39,720 nt of DNA, taken from the sequence record PZ618370.1, one strand, 5' to 3'. The notes under the pieces were generated by a model. It ran no database searches, was not told the DNA's origin, and was given only the letters and a program-made list of their open reading frames with translations. Positions 1 to 39,720 of the stretch are shown here, piece by piece; within the stretch, counting starts at the first letter, position 1; each line of letters starts with the position of its first letter. Source of the stretch: a phage. Made by a program: the position numbers and the translations under genes.

Positions 1-211
1 ATCGGATGACGACCAGTGAACCAATCAGTAGGTAGACCATAGGTTAGCCTGAATGGTGTTACCTAAAGTCCTTGACTACAGTAGCTAAGGTCAGTAGAGT
101 GAGTCTTTATCCACGTACTGACCTTAGCTACTGTAGTCAAGGACTTTAGGTAACACCATTCAGGCTAACCTATGGTCTACCTACTGATTGGTTCACTGGT
201 CGTCATCCGAT
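1..211. repeat. terminal foldback palindrome: arms 1-96 and 116-211 are exact reverse complements, 19-nt spacer 97-115
   Basis: Reverse complement of 1-96 written out by hand equals 116-211 base for base. Hairpin-end read-through or assembly artefact are both possible. Confidence 0.9.
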
Positions 212-242
212 GGTCTCAGACCTACGGTCCTTGACCTACAGT
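116..242 (+). repeat. left copy of direct terminal repeat (at least 127 bp)
   Basis: Identical to 39594-39720 at the window end; T7-like genomes carry direct terminal repeats. Confidence 0.8.
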
Positions 243-484
243 AGCTGAGACCTTAAGGTAGGGACGATGAGTTTTGGACCAAAAGTTTGAGACCACATCT
301 CACAGTTCAAGAACCTCAAGTCTCCCCATAGGCCTACTTCAGTCCAGACCAAAGGCCATACCCCAGTCTATCATAAGGTTGGACAGATGGTCAATACTTC
401 AGGTCAACGATAGGTCATGACGATAGGTGGTGGTGGAGACGATAGGTAGGGACTATGGGTCTGTCTCTGAGTCTCTATCTGTAT

Positions 485-613
485 AACCATAAGTCACTAA
501 CCATAGGTCCTACAACCATAGGTCCTACAACCATAGGTCCTACAACCATAGGTCCTACAACCTACAGTCTCAACCATAAGACACCAACACCTACAGTCAT
601 AGACCTACAGTTA
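485..613 (+). repeat. tandem array of 15-bp unit AACCATAGGTCCTAC (4 perfect copies 499-558, degenerate copies on both sides)
   Basis: Direct reading of sequence; sits in the non-coding left leader, analogous to the repeated motifs in the T7 left end. Confidence 0.85.
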
Positions 614-26643: not shown

Positions 26644-26693
26644 AAGGGCCTATAGATTTACCTTAACTATCACTATAGGGACTATAGGCCCTT
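26644..26693 (+). repeat. 12-bp perfect inverted repeat AAGGGCCTATAG / CTATAGGCCCTT bracketing the phi13 promoter
   Basis: Reverse complement checked by hand; arms 26644-26655 and 26682-26693; position matches T7 RNase III site R13. Confidence 0.7.
26661..26683 (+). promoter_or_regulatory. phage RNAP promoter (phi13-like)
   Basis: CCTTAACTATCACTATA-GGGAC; +1 G at 26678. Confidence 0.85.
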
Positions 26694-37314: not shown

Positions 37315-39074
37315 GTAACGATTTAGTGGCGCGTCAGGCGCTAATGACTGCCCGTATGAAGGCAGACTTCGTGTTCTTCCTGTTCGTCCTGTGGAAAGCT
37401 CTGTCACTCCCAGTCCCGACTCGCTGTCAGATTGACATGGCGAAGAAGCTATCGGCTGGGGACAGCAGGCGCTTCATCCTGCAGGCGTTCCGTGGTATCG
37501 GGAAGTCCTTCATTACATGTGCCTTCGTGGTCTGGAAGCTATGGAACAACCCAGACTTGAGGTTCATGATTGTGTCGGCCTCAAAGGAACGAGCCGATGC
37601 GAACTCCATCTTCATCAAGCGAATCATCGACCTCATGCCACAGCTTCAGGAACTCAAACCTAAGCAGGGACAGCGAGATGCGGTTATCAGCTTCGATGTT
37701 GGGCCAGCAAAGCCAGACCACTCACCTTCGGTTAAGTCCGTTGGTATCACTGGTCAGTTGACTGGTAGTCGTGCTGACATCCTTATTGCAGATGACGTTG
37801 AGGTTCCAAACAACTCAGCGACTCAGGCTGCGCGAGACCGACTGTCAGAGCTTGTGAAAGAGTTCGACGCTATTCTGAAGCCGGGAGGTACAATCATCTA
37901 TCTGGGTACTCCTCAGAACGAGATGACCCTGTATCGTGAGTTGGAAGGCCGCGGGTACACCACTACTATCTGGCCCGCTCGTTATCCACGCGACAGGAAG
38001 GACTGGCAGTCTTACGGCGACCGTCTGGCTCCTATGCTTCAGGCAGAGCTTGAAGAGGACCCTGAGTCCTTCTACTGGCGTCCAACAGATGAGGTACGAT
38101 TCGAGGATACGGACCTGAAGGAACGTGAGCTGTCATACGGTAAAGCTGGCTTCGCTCTACAGTTCATGCTTAACCCGAACCTGAGTGATGCTGAGAAGTA
38201 TCCTCTGAAGCTCCGTGACCTTATCGTAGCCGACTTGGACCCAGAGTCCAGCCCAATGGTCTACCAATGGTTGCCAAACACTCAGAACAAGCGTGAGGAC
38301 GTTCCTAACGTTGGACTCATGGGTGACTCATACCACACGTATCAGACTGTAGGTTCTGCCTTCAGCTCGTACACCCAGAAGATTCTGGTCATTGACCCTA
38401 GTGGTCGTGGTAAGGATGAAACTGGTTATGCGGTACTGTACCAGCTCAACGGCTACATCTTCGCTATGGAAGTTGGTGGTATGCGTGGTGGATATGAAGA
38501 CTCTACGCTGCAAGCCTTGGCTAAGATTGGTCGTAAGTGGAAGGTCAACGAATACGTCATTGAGGGTAACTTCGGTGATGGTATGTACCTTGAGCTGTTC
38601 AAGCCTGTAGCGGCCCGTATCCATCCAGCGGCTGTAACTGAAGTGAAGAGTAAGGGTCAGAAAGAACTACGCATCTGTGACGTTCTGGAGCCTATCATGG
38701 GGTCTCACCGTCTTATCGTCAACGCTGCTGCTATCGTCCAAGACTACCAGACAGCCTCTGATAAGGATGGTGTGCGTAACCCTATCTACTCTCTCTTCTA
38801 TCAGATGACCCGTATCTCTCGTGAACGTGGAGCCTTGGCACATGATGACCGACTTGATGCGCTGGCTATCGGTGTACAGTTCTTCGTTGAGTCTATGGCT
38901 AAGGATGCCAACAAAGGTGAACGTGAAGTCACTGAGGAGTGGCTGGAGGAACAGATGGAGAACCCACGGAAAGGCTTCGAGTCCATCCACACTGAGTTCT
39001 GGGACAATGGGGTCAGGGTAACTCACGATACGGACGACGAGCTTGGATTAGGGTCATACGTTACGTTCCACTAG
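37311..39074 (+). CDS. 19: terminase large subunit (gp19)
   Basis: 587 aa (T7 586 aa); [131 protein letters not shown] match T7 gp19 as recalled; TTG start after AAGGAGG. Confidence 0.96.
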
Positions 39075-39084
39075 CTGAATGAAT

Positions 39085-39131
39085 AACTATAGGAGAAAGC
39101 TGCATGAATACGCAGTTAGTACCCTATAGTT
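39085..39131 (+). repeat. 9-bp inverted repeat AACTATAGG / CCTATAGTT with 29-nt spacer between terminase and phiOR
   Basis: Arms 39085-39093 and 39123-39131 verified by hand; arms resemble the promoter core. Confidence 0.6.
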
Positions 39132-39168
39132 ACTACCAGTCTAACCTACTGTTTTACAAGGAGTTTGG

Positions 39169-39191
39169 ACTTAACTATCACTATAGGGAAG
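39169..39191 (+). promoter_or_regulatory. phage RNAP promoter near the right end (phiOR-like)
   Basis: ACTTAACTATCACTATA-GGGAA; +1 G at 39186. Confidence 0.85.
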
Positions 39192-39370
39192 ACCCCCGGT
39201 TACTTATAGTATTACTGTAGTGAATATACATATGCAGACTTTATGCAAGACCTTAGGAGGCAGACTCCGAGTTCTTACCTAAGGCTTGCACCGATGGAAG
39301 GAGGGTGATATTAATCATAATCCCTCCAATACAGATAGTAAAGACCATAGATACAGGAGGTATGTAGCAT

Positions 39371-39529
39371 ATGGCAAAGACCAAAGCTGTGCTTAAAGCT
39401 CTGGTGACCAACCGAGCTACATACAGGTTTCTTGCTGCTGTTCTACTTGCTGCTGGCGTTACTGCTGGAAGTAAGTGGGTCGGGTGGGTCGAGACTCTCG
39501 TATGCTCTCTGGTCTCTCAGTGTAATTAA
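39371..39529 (+). CDS. hypothetical small membrane protein (gene 19.5 position, 52 aa)
   Basis: ATG 10 nt after AGGAGG (39355-39360); hand-translated MAKTKAVLKALVTNRATYRFLAAVLLAAGVTAGSKWVGWVETLVCSLVSQCN; downstream of phiOR as T7 gene 19.5. Confidence 0.3.
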   Translation: MAKTKAVLKALVTNRATYRFLAAVLLAAGVTAGSKWVGWVETLVCSLVSQCN

Positions 39530-39563
39530 TGCAATCATGGTAACGATTCATGAGCGGAAGACC

Positions 39564-39604
39564 TAAGGTCAGTACGTGGATAAAGACTCACTCTACTGAC
39601 CTTA
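39564..39604 (+). repeat. palindromic hairpin element at the inner boundary of the right terminal repeat (11-bp arms TAAGGTCAGTA / TACTGACCTTA, 19-nt spacer)
   Basis: Same arms as 86-126, but the spacer is the reverse complement of the left-end spacer. Confidence 0.8.
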
Positions 39605-39720
39605 GCTACTGTAGTCAAGGACTTTAGGTAACACCATTCAGGCTAACCTATGGTCTACCTACTGATTGGTTCACTGGTCGTCATCCGATGGTCTCAGACC
39701 TACGGTCCTTGACCTACAGT
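39594..39720 (+). repeat. right copy of direct terminal repeat
   Basis: Identical to 116-242; runs to the last base of the window. Confidence 0.8.

What the first reader, a model, noticed from the sequence alone, without database searches (positions are those of the whole stretch)
1..242. Left terminus is a perfect foldback palindrome fused to the direct terminal repeat
Positions 1-96 are the exact reverse complement of 116-211, separated by a 19-nt non-palindromic spacer (97-115, GAGTGAGTCTTTATCCACG). Positions 116-242 recur as a direct repeat at 39594-39720, as expected for a T7-like terminal repeat. Equivalently, 39564-39689 is the exact reverse complement of 1-126, with the spacer flipped between the two ends. 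This is the sequence you would read going down one strand, around a covalently closed hairpin loop, and back up the other strand. It is therefore either a captured hairpin-ended molecule or a snap-back/chimeric assembly artefact; a T7 hairpin intermediate next to the right-end repeat has been reported for concatemer processing, which makes the first option conceivable. The true repeat length cannot be fixed because the window edges cut it.
Basis: partly seen in the sequence, partly recalled or inferred. Interest (0 to 1): 0.6.

Follow-up and report, generated by a model that had tools for sequence, protein, structure and literature searches.

The report
Assembly foldback at conserved packaging hairpin
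The palindromic left end is not a real phage genome end: the assembler added a snap-back extension that turns around at a small conserved DNA hairpin about 190 bp before the true terminal repeat, in the same position as the little-known "M-hairpin" that phage T7 uses when cutting its replicated DNA into genomes.

Summary
The sequence facts are correct, but the reading of the ends is not. Both the direct repeat (116-242 = 39594-39720) and the inverted match (1-127 = rc 39563-39689) are exactly 127 nt, and 96+19+12 = 127. At k=127 the window contains 114 non-genomic k-mers (starts 2-115), bounded by one canonical k-mer on each side. This is a de Bruijn graph foldback edge joined to a circularised contig. 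The real terminal repeat is predicted at 298-475 (TCTCACAG..., 178 bp), by homology with K1F, Pisces and T7. The pivot is a native hairpin at 39563-39605 with a 12-bp stem. It is present in all 25 Kayfunavirus loci examined, shows compensatory changes, carries three unrelated loop sequences and lies about 184 bp from the repeat. T7, T3, K11 and gh-1 have hairpins in equivalent positions that fold better on the bottom strand; in T7 this is the neighbourhood of the M-hairpin next to gene 19.5. Four GenBank assemblies from three laboratories open exactly at this hairpin, always on the same side. I cannot tell without reads whether the snap-back DNA formed in infected cells or during library preparation. 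I put in-cell origin at about 55%.

The parts
1..115 (.). Non-genomic foldback extension: 1-96 is the reverse complement of 116-211 and 97-115 is the native hairpin loop in flipped orientation. It belongs to the foldback graph edge 1-242.
   Evidence: The 127-mers starting at 2-115 are absent from the canonical circular unit on either strand, while the 127-mers at 1 and at 116 are canonical. No relative has this sequence upstream of the 116 equivalent.
116..242 (+). 127-nt assembler overlap (k-mer vertex B), identical to 39594-39720. It is not the phage terminal repeat. Biologically it is part of the last 182 bp of unique right-end DNA.
   Evidence: (exactly 127 nt). ST3 (SPAdes 3.15.2) has the same start and a 127-nt overlap.
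39594..39720 (+). Second copy of the 127-nt assembler overlap.
39563..39605 (.). Native conserved hairpin (M-hairpin analogue) and pivot of the foldback. Outer stem 39563-39574 / 39594-39605 (12 bp); inner helix 39576-39578 / 39589-39591; apical loop 39579-39588.
   Evidence: DNA fold -11.3 kcal/mol on the top strand with z -3.6, -12.8 on the bottom strand with z -5.3. Present in 25 of 25 related loci. Covariation. It is the most stable 50-nt DNA hairpin of the window on either strand.
116..297 (+). Unique right-end DNA between the hairpin loop and the terminal repeat (continuation of 39594-39720). It contains a second imperfect inverted repeat, 123-151 / 220-249.
   Evidence: Records with determined ends stop 53-57 nt beyond the 39720 equivalent. 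Alignment to Pisces and K1F. Inverted repeats I2 and I3.
298..475 (+). Predicted true direct terminal repeat (178 bp), present once in this assembly. It starts with TCTCACAGTTCAAGAACCTCAAG and is followed at 476-484 by TATCTGTAT, a motif resembling the concatemer-junction motif.
   Evidence: K1F repeat of 178 bp with the same start and end. Pisces PhageTerm repeat starting at the same base. T7 left end TCTCACAGTGT. K11 annotation of 'concatemeric junction' tatctgttg immediately after its repeat.
39371..39529 (+). Gene 19.5 homologue (52 aa, membrane-type small protein). The hairpin begins 34 nt after its stop codon.
   Evidence: Its relatives were used to fetch 25 loci. T7 gene 19.5 ends 30 nt before the T7 inverted repeat.
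39163..39192 (+). Phage-type promoter in the position of T7/T3/K11 phiOR, upstream of gene 19.5.
   Evidence: GTTTGGACTTAACTATCACTATAGGGAAGA. phiOR annotations in T7, T3 and K11.

Best explanation
The window is a k=127 de Bruijn (SPAdes-type) assembly of a Kayfunavirus (K1F-like, T7 relatives) genome. The two terminal repeats were collapsed, so the genome closed into a circle of 39,478 bp.

The contig is three graph edges read in a row:
- a foldback edge (1-242);
- the long genome edge (116-39689);
- a short edge (39563-39720).

The foldback edge exists because the library contained DNA in which the bottom strand runs through the hairpin loop and, after the 12-nt stem, continues as the top strand. 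This is rc(X)-loop'-X, where X is the DNA to the right of the hairpin, leading to the terminal repeat and the left end of the next genome.

The pivot is a conserved DNA hairpin. It lies 34 nt after gene 19.5 and about 190 bp before the true terminal repeat (298-475). It is the positional counterpart of the T7 M-hairpin.

Proposed mechanism (inferred, T7 model). At a concatemer junction the bottom strand is nicked just left of the hairpin. Its 3' end snaps back on the inverted repeat and is extended by the phage DNA polymerase through X and the repeat. This gives the downstream genome its own copy of the repeat behind a hairpin cap. Terminase later cuts the cap off at 297/298.

Reads from that hairpin-capped DNA, or from the released cap, created the foldback edge.

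Sub-claims and confidence:
- assembly-graph origin and misplaced repeat, about 0.9;
- pivot is a conserved M-hairpin-type element, about 0.75;
- snap-back DNA formed in vivo rather than in the library, about 0.55.
For: Graph signature.
- Both repeats are exactly 127 nt and 96+19+12 = 127.
- Only at k=127 does a single canonical k-mer precede the 114 novel ones.
- The related ST phages were assembled with SPAdes 3.15.2 from 2x300 reads.

True ends.
- Pisces (PhageTerm), IMM-002 and EV136_1 start at window 298.
- The K1F 178-bp repeat starts and ends at the equivalents of 298 and 475.
- Records with curated ends stop 53-57 nt past the 39720 equivalent.

Hairpin conservation.
- It is present in 25 of 25 loci, with three unrelated loop sequences and one orientation only.
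- Three pairs carry compensatory changes, 94.9% of cells are paired, and 0 of 500 shuffles reach the observed covariation score.
- Its distance to TCTCACAG is 182-195 nt in 20 of 21 loci, while its distance from gene 19.5 varies from 36 to 156 nt.

T7 link.
- The T7 inverted repeat 39568-39608 starts 30 nt after gene 19.5 and is centred 190 bp left of the repeat.
- Heineman et al. 2009 describe an M-hairpin 'adjacent' to gene 19.5 whose deletion gives concatemer-processing defects.
- A hairpin 'containing the TR' is reported in T7 infection.
- The foldback strand is the bottom strand, and this strand folds better in the window, Pisces, K1F, T3, T7, K11 and gh-1. In T7 the values are -11.1 against -7.2 kcal/mol, because G.T wobbles occur only on the bottom strand.

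Recurrence and one-sidedness.
- ST3, ST21, SD6 and PRF-SP2 come from Nepal, China and Malaysia and carry two different loop types.
- All four open exactly at the loop/right-arm boundary, or at the homologue of window 1-127.
- No contig end was seen at the mirror-image (Y-type) positions, and the Y-type junction has 0 hits in viral contigs.
Against: - No reads are available, so the molecules behind the foldback edge were never seen.
- The bottom-strand hairpin is the most stable 50-nt DNA hairpin in the whole window (-12.8 kcal/mol, next best -12.3). Thermodynamics alone could therefore select this site and this strand for an in-vitro snap-back.
- Library preparation is documented to make chimeric reads at inverted repeats.
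- No other assembled copy of the foldback exists in 50,697 phage records, IMG/VR, JGI metagenomes or GTDB genomes.
- Most permuted Kayfunavirus assemblies run straight through the hairpin.
- No T7-group record in a 60-record sample opens at the T7 inverted repeat.
- The T7 inverted repeat is dispensable: evolved T7 clones delete it together with part of gene 19.5.
- The text of the T7 hairpin papers (Chung 1990; Kim 1996, 1997) could not be read. That the T7 inverted repeat I located is the mapped M-hairpin rests on 'adjacent to gene 19.5' plus position.
Confidence: 0.55

Rival explanations
1. Same assembly-graph picture, but the snap-back DNA was made in vitro. During fragmentation, end repair or PCR, a bottom-strand 3' end lying in the hairpin folded back on the 12-nt stem and was extended. 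This gave chimeric inserts abundant enough, at very high phage coverage, to survive graph cleaning. In this reading the hairpin is only the best self-priming site in the genome.
For: - Inverted-repeat-dependent chimeric reads are a documented product of sonication and enzymatic-fragmentation libraries.
- The site is the most stable DNA hairpin in the window, and the strand that folded is the more stable one.
- The foldback is not seen in most related assemblies, so its level sits near an assembler threshold.
Against: - Hairpins within 0.5-1 kcal/mol (8691, 30282, 10543) and an equally long perfect 12-bp inverted repeat (26644-26693) produced no break or foldback in this contig.
- The same site and the same side recur in assemblies from three other laboratories, with two different loop sequences.
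- Such artefacts are described as low-frequency, whereas this edge survived coverage-based cleaning.
- The product is the one expected from the T7 hairpin pathway.
Confidence: 0.38
2. The mature virion DNA really ends in a covalently closed hairpin (a hairpin telomere, as in N15 or poxviruses), or has a foldback left terminus.
For: The sequence alone is compatible with reading round a closed end.
Against: - Only one end of the contig shows a foldback.
- The loop has a single orientation in all relatives, so there is no flip-flop.
- Relatives have experimentally or PhageTerm-determined direct terminal repeats starting at the 298 equivalent.
- The arm length equals k-31, so the assembler sets it.
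- The genome encodes a T7-type large terminase next to the site.
Confidence: 0.03
3. The native hairpin is real, but it acts at the RNA level as an RNase III site or a 3' stabiliser/terminator of the phiOR/gene 19.5 transcript, and has nothing to do with DNA processing. The foldback is then an unrelated artefact of any stable inverted repeat.
For: - It lies just downstream of the last gene and of a phiOR-like promoter.
- The gh-1 record annotates a stem-loop in the same intergenic region as a putative RNase III site.
Against: - In T7, T3, K11, gh-1 and Kayfunavirus the structure is more stable on the non-transcribed (bottom) strand. In T7 the top strand has A.C mismatches where the bottom strand has G.T pairs.
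- Its distance is conserved relative to the terminal repeat, not relative to gene 19.5.
- There is no run of T after the stem.
- There is no Rfam match.
- Deleting the T7 M-hairpin gives concatemer-processing defects.
Confidence: 0.12

Closest known systems
[quoted passage not shown]
   Same: - An inverted repeat immediately downstream of gene 19.5 and about 190 bp left of the terminal repeat at the concatemer junction.
- The foldback arms are made of repeat-side DNA, as in the T7 hairpin 'containing the TR'.
- The bottom-strand fold is favoured.
   Different: - There is no sequence similarity to the T7/T3/K11 hairpin family (AGGGAT...ATCCCT).
- The Kayfunavirus version has a perfect 11-14 bp outer stem and a 19-21 nt interior with interchangeable sequences.
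- Formation in vivo and a role in processing have not been shown for it.
- In T7 the element is non-essential.
T7-group direct terminal repeat and concatemer junction
   Same: The window has a T7-type repeat: TCTCACAG start, 178 bp, followed by a TATCTGT motif.
   Different: It lies at 298-475 and is present once.
End overlap of circular contigs from de Bruijn assemblers (SPAdes, k = 127)
   Same: The direct repeat is exactly 127 nt, and contig ends fall on branching k-mers. The related ST3 record shows the same overlap and was assembled with SPAdes 3.15.2.
   Different: An extra palindromic edge of 115 nt is attached here, which is unusual in a deposited contig. No other example was found.
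Inverted-repeat chimeric (snap-back / PDSM) reads from NGS library preparation
   Same: The chimera joins the two strands at a short genomic inverted repeat.
   Different: It occurs at one site and in one orientation, recurs across laboratories, and coincides with a known biological hairpin-forming position.
Hairpin telomeres and rolling-hairpin replication (poxviruses, N15, parvoviruses)
   Same: The down-round-and-back sequence topology.
   Different: There is no flip-flop, no second hairpin end, a terminase-packaged direct-repeat genome, and the hairpin is internal to the unit genome.

Membership tests
T7-type direct terminal repeat (claim made for 116-242 / 39594-39720) | Begins at the conserved genome left end (TCTCACAG...) shared by T7, K1F and relatives with mapped ends | tested here: not met
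   116 begins TACTGACCTTAG. TCTCACAG is at 298. K1F, Pisces, IMM-002 and EV136_1 start at the 298 equivalent.
T7-type direct terminal repeat (claim made for 116-242 / 39594-39720) | Repeat length is a property of the phage (about 160-230 bp) and the repeat ends just before the ATCTGT junction motif | tested here: not met
   Its length is exactly 127 = k, and it ends inside unique right-end DNA. In contrast, 298-475 (178 bp, followed by TATCTGTAT) meets this feature.
T7-type direct terminal repeat (claim made for 116-242 / 39594-39720) | Present at both physical ends of virion DNA (read-start pile-ups, doubled coverage) | not testable with these tools
   No reads are available.
De Bruijn-graph foldback edge plus circular overlap | The non-genomic k-mers form one run bounded on each side by exactly one canonical k-mer at the assembler's k | tested here: met
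   At k=127 the novel k-mer starts are 2-115 and contiguous, and the k-mers at 1 and 116 are canonical. At k = 55, 77, 99 and 141 the left boundary does not fall at position 1.
T7 M-hairpin-type concatemer-processing hairpin | Inverted repeat next to gene 19.5, left of the terminal repeat at the concatemer junction | tested here: met
   The hairpin 39563-39605 begins 34 nt after gene 19.5 and its loop centre lies 192 bp before 298. The same holds in 25 of 25 relatives. The T7 inverted repeat is 30 nt after gene 19.5 and 190 bp before the repeat. The M-hairpin is described as 'adjacent' to gene 19.5.
T7 M-hairpin-type concatemer-processing hairpin | Selection for the DNA secondary structure | tested here: met
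   Three pairs have compensatory changes, 94.9% of cells are paired, and 0 of 500 shuffles reach the observed score. The stem is kept while the loop is replaced wholesale. The bottom strand is the more stable in 7 of 7 phages.
T7 M-hairpin-type concatemer-processing hairpin | Sequence homology to the T7 element | tested here: not met
   T7, T3 and K11 share AGGGAT...ATCCCT. The Kayfunavirus stem is CTAAGGTCAGTA, with no alignable similarity. The relation is positional and structural only.
T7 M-hairpin-type concatemer-processing hairpin | Hairpin-ended DNA carrying the terminal repeat is formed in infected cells | tested here: inconclusive
   The assembled foldback has the expected polarity, with repeat-side arms and the bottom strand turning. 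Contig breaks recur on that side only. The molecules themselves were not observed, and in-vitro origin is not excluded.
T7 M-hairpin-type concatemer-processing hairpin | Deletion impairs concatemer processing but is not lethal | not testable with these tools
   Known for T7 from the literature and consistent with viable T7 clones that lack the inverted repeat. Not known for Kayfunavirus.
Covalently closed hairpin telomere of a mature genome | Hairpins at both ends, with the loop in flip and flop orientation among genomes | tested here: not met
   The right end of the window has no foldback. The loop has a single orientation in all 25 loci and in the GenBank relatives.
Library-preparation inverted-repeat chimeras | Arise at many inverted repeats, in both orientations, roughly according to hairpin stability | tested here: inconclusive
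   Only this site and this side are visible at assembly level, although hairpins of similar stability exist. Assemblies reveal only edges that pass coverage filters, so read-level counts are needed.

The most novel reading that the evidence does not exclude
Routine short-read assemblies of K1F-like phages have captured, at single-nucleotide resolution, the in-vivo hairpin-capped product of concatemer processing, which until now is known only from gel mapping in T7. The turn-around point is a conserved hairpin that folds better on the bottom strand, and a hairpin is found in the same position in five Studiervirinae genera. This would mean that hairpin-primed duplication of the terminal repeat is the general mechanism of the subfamily. 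It would also mean the hairpin species is abundant enough in phage DNA preparations to be measured directly in existing public read sets.
Probability: 0.5. Interest if true: 0.6.

Novelty: new member of a known kind. Interest (0 to 1): 0.45.

Why it matters
Practical value:
- The first 115 nt and one copy of the 127-nt overlap should be removed.
- The genome should be re-opened at 298, with a 178-bp terminal repeat at each end, giving a mature length of about 39,656 bp.
- The same hairpin explains why several GenBank Kayfunavirus records start at an odd place.

Biological value:
- How T7-like phages regenerate the terminal repeat lost in concatemers has been open since the 1970s-1990s, and the hairpin model rests on a few T7 papers.
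- A conserved, covarying hairpin at a fixed distance from the repeat, in genera with unrelated hairpin sequences, supports that model.
- Public Illumina runs of these phages may already contain junction reads that give the apex, the strand and the outer cut site of the hairpin species.

Tried and rejected
- Looking for other assembled copies of the foldback:
  - BLAST of the junction against 50,697 phage records gave no record covering at least 80% of it.
  - An exact X-type junction scan of IMG/VR gave one hit, which turned out to be a natural 14-bp stem variant and not a foldback.
  - The Y-type junction gave 0 hits.
  - JGI metagenomes and GTDB genomes gave 0 hits.
- Flip-flop of the loop among relatives: none found.
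- Rfam families in 38900-39720 at E<=1: none.
- T7-group records opening at the T7 inverted repeat: none in a 60-record sample. This is uninformative, because most of those records are reference-guided.
- The 60 records closest to SD6: only SD6 opens at the hairpin.
- The primary T7 hairpin papers could not be read. They are not held, and several full-text searches failed to find a description of the mapped apex.
- Uniqueness of the hairpin in stability as an argument for biology: rejected. It is the most stable hairpin in the genome, which cuts both ways.

Full report
**1. Observation**

- 1-96 is the reverse complement of 116-211.
- The spacer 97-115 is GAGTGAGTCTTTATCCACG.
- 116-242 equals 39594-39720.
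- The left end is the reverse complement of the right-end region. The match is in fact 127 nt long: rc(39563-39689) = 1-127.

The repeat finder gives the same arms. The right end contains a short native inverted repeat: CTAAGGTCAGTA (39563-39574), a 19-nt loop (39575-39593) and TACTGACCTTAG (39594-39605). The long palindrome at the left end is this small hairpin with its right-hand flank copied onto both arms and its loop flipped.

**2. What the numbers say about the assembly**

Both the direct repeat and the inverted match are exactly 127 nt, and 96 (arm) + 19 (loop) + 12 (stem) = 127.

I took 116-39593 as one circular genome unit (39,478 bp) and asked which 127-mers of the window are absent from it on either strand. 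The answer is the 114 k-mers starting at 2-115, in one contiguous run. The k-mers at 1 and at 116 are canonical. At k = 55, 77, 99 or 141 the left boundary does not fall at position 1.

This is the signature of an edge of a k=127 de Bruijn graph printed together with its two end vertices. The window is therefore three edges in a row:
- a foldback edge (1-242);
- the long genome edge (116-39689);
- a short edge (39563-39720).

Because the native stem is only 12 nt, no k of 21 or more could create the junction from normal reads. The library must have contained inserts that carried the junction.

**3. Where the real ends are**

BLAST places the window in Kayfunavirus (K1F-like Studiervirinae).

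- Records whose ends were determined start at window 298. Examples are Pisces, with a 190-bp repeat predicted by PhageTerm, IMM-002 and EV136_1.
- Records with curated ends stop 53-57 nt beyond the equivalent of 39720, that is at 295-299.
- K1F has a 178-bp terminal repeat that begins TCTCACAGTTCAAGAACCTCAAG, identical to window 298. It ends ...CTGAGTCTC | TATCTGTAT, as at window 475/476.
- T7 starts TCTCACAGTGT.
- K11 annotates tatctgttg, immediately after its repeat, as the concatemeric junction.

The true repeat is therefore predicted at 298-475 and is present once. Positions 116-297 are the last 182 bp of unique right-end DNA. The 127-nt repeat is an assembler overlap, not the phage repeat.

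**4. The pivot is a conserved element**

Using the gene 19.5 homologue (39371-39529) I fetched 25 related loci.

- All 25 carry the hairpin, with an outer stem of 11-14 bp.
- There are three unrelated interior sequences: cgtggataaagactcactc, tcatagctgacgctactct and cgtgggataaaccctccactc. Each has its own small inner helix.
- The orientation is always the same, so there is no flip-flop.
- The most distant locus keeps the stem through two double changes (TTAAGGTCTGTA / TACAGACCTTAA).
- On an 11-sequence alignment, three pairs show compensatory changes, 94.9% of cells pair, and 0 of 500 shuffles reach the observed covariation score.
- The distance from the hairpin centre to TCTCACAG is 182-195 nt in 20 of 21 loci, although insertions move the hairpin 36-156 nt away from gene 19.5.

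The element is therefore tied to the repeat and not to the gene.

**5. Comparison with T7 and other genera**

T7 has an imperfect inverted repeat at 39568-39608. It lies 30 nt after gene 19.5 and is centred 190 bp left of the right repeat.

- It folds at -11.1 kcal/mol (z = -4.0) on the bottom strand.
- It folds at only -7.2 kcal/mol (z = -1.9) on the top strand, because G.T pairs on the bottom strand are A.C mismatches on the top.

The best bottom-strand hairpin within 330 nt upstream of the repeat is placed as follows:

| Phage | Hairpin centre relative to repeat start |
|---|---|
| T3, T7, K1F, Pisces, window | -185 to -196 (centre of the best-scoring 58-nt scan window) |
| K11 | about -144 (my estimate from the position of the hairpin within its scan window) |
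| gh-1 | about -170 (my estimate from the position of the hairpin within its scan window) |

In every case the bottom strand is the more stable one. T7 and T3 differ by two compensatory pairs in the inner stem; I read this by eye.

The searchable literature gives one anchor. [quoted passage not shown] The primary papers are not held. Identifying the T7 inverted repeat that I located with the mapped M-hairpin is therefore an inference from adjacency and position.

**6. Polarity**

The window's foldback reads rc(X)-loop'-X, where X is the DNA to the right of the hairpin, towards the repeat and the next genome's left end.

In strand terms:
- The bottom strand runs canonically through the loop and the 12-nt stem.
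- It then continues as the top strand.
- This is the product of a bottom-strand 3' end snapping back on the inverted repeat and being extended.

It is also the product required by the T7 hairpin model for giving the downstream genome its own copy of the repeat. That model is from my own knowledge and could not be checked here. The mirror-image product, Y-loop-rc(Y), would lack the repeat.

**7. Recurrence**

Four GenBank assemblies open at the two k-mer vertices that an X-type foldback creates.

- ST3_da Silva starts at TACTGACCTTAG, the 116 equivalent, and has a 127-nt end overlap.
- ST21, deposited in reverse orientation, starts with the homologue of window 1-127 and then follows the canonical path (GTCTTCC...). 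It ends at the reverse complement of the 116 equivalent, giving a 96-nt overlap.
- Both ST phages were assembled with SPAdes 3.15.2 from 2x300 reads.
- SD6 (China) starts at the right arm and ends with the last loop base.
- PRF-SP2 (Malaysia) starts at the right arm and has a 25-nt overlap. Both SD6 and PRF-SP2 carry the other loop type.

A circular contig opening at one given base has a chance of about 1 in 39,000, so this is not coincidence. I saw no record opening at the Y-type positions.

Most permuted assemblies run through the hairpin. The foldback species is therefore usually below the assembler's threshold.

**8. In-vivo or in-vitro origin**

For a biological origin:
- The site is the known hairpin-forming position of the T7 group.
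- The polarity is the one the pathway needs.
- It recurs across laboratories and across loop types.
- Other hairpins of similar stability, and an equally long perfect 12-bp inverted repeat at 26644-26693, gave no break.

Against:
- The bottom-strand hairpin is the single most stable 50-nt DNA hairpin in the window (-12.8 kcal/mol, next best -12.3). Thermodynamics alone could pick both the site and the strand.
- Chimeras that depend on inverted repeats are a documented library artefact.
- No second assembled foldback exists in any collection searched.

I put in-vivo origin at about 0.55 and in-vitro origin at about 0.4. Either way the 115 nt are not part of the mature genome.

**9. Rejected readings**

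- A hairpin telomere of the virion DNA is contradicted by four things: the one-sidedness, the absence of flip-flop, the mapped direct repeats of relatives, and an arm length equal to k-31.
- An RNA-level role for the native hairpin is possible. The gh-1 record annotates a nearby stem-loop as a putative RNase III site. The arguments against it are:
  - the bias towards the non-transcribed strand;
  - the fixed distance to the repeat;
  - the lack of a T tract;
  - the absence of an Rfam match;
  - the T7 deletion phenotype.

**10. Limits**

- T7 clones from an evolution experiment (MZ375244 and many others) have lost the whole inverted repeat together with the distal part of gene 19.5, by recombination between ATAGAGTC repeats, and are viable. 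This agrees with the literature statement that the element is non-essential. The hairpin route cannot therefore be the only way to make ends in T7.
- Nothing here shows that the Kayfunavirus hairpin functions in processing.

**11. Verdict**

- The terminal-repeat interpretation is wrong.
- The hairpin-or-artefact dichotomy is right but cannot be settled without reads.
- The useful result is a conserved, previously unannotated counterpart of the T7 M-hairpin in K1F-like phages, and the recognition that assemblies break, or fold back, exactly there.

Noticed in passing
window 499-573: Four tandem copies of a 15-nt unit (AACCATAGGTCCTAC; the last copy is degenerate) lie just right of the predicted terminal repeat. 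The whole 200-950 region is full of related ACCTACAGT / CCATAGGTC motifs, which recall the short repeat arrays next to the T7 repeat.
   Followed up: no
window 123-151 with 220-249 (also 39601-39629 with 39698-39720): A second imperfect inverted repeat (16 nt at 88% plus 14 nt at 93%, about 68 nt apart) lies between the hairpin and the terminal repeat. It is also present in a relative (L009). It could be a terminase or packaging recognition structure.
   Followed up: partly
window 26644-26693: The only other perfect 12-bp inverted repeat in the window (AAGGGCCTATAG / CTATAGGCCCTT) brackets a phage promoter (TTAACTATCACTATAGGGA) in its 26-nt loop.
   Followed up: no
L042 (MZ375244.1, T7 clone T7_60S) and L043 (MZ375251.1, T7_100L): Many T7 mutant-clone records (MZ3752xx) share a deletion from inside gene 19.5 to the last base of the T7 inverted repeat, between ATAGAGTC direct repeats. 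Other clones carry a T-to-C change in the right arm that keeps a G.T pair on the bottom strand only.
   Followed up: partly
L010-L034, between gene 19.5 and the hairpin: The stem of the Kayfunavirus hairpin is nearly invariant, but its interior occurs as three unrelated sequences of 19-21 nt. Insertions of 30-120 nt occur between gene 19.5 and the hairpin, while the hairpin-to-repeat distance stays at about 184 nt.
   Followed up: partly
GenBank hits: Several near-identical Kayfunavirus genomes are deposited under unlikely hosts: Enterococcus phage EFA-1 and IME_EF3, Staphylococcus phage MBBL139 and Acinetobacter phage vB_Aba_01KA. These are probably contaminant or mislabelled records.
   Followed up: no
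L010/L011 (ZG49, KX669227.5): The ZG49 record carries a terminal redundancy of about 400 nt that spans gene 19.5 and the hairpin and ends 72 nt after the hairpin. This is another misplaced 'end' in this region, and it does not match a standard k-mer length.
   Followed up: no
L046 (gh-1, NC_004665) 501-570: The gh-1 record annotates a stem-loop between the last gene and the terminal repeat as a putative RNase III site (R13). A stronger hairpin that folds better on the bottom strand lies just upstream of it, about 170 nt before the repeat.
   Followed up: partly
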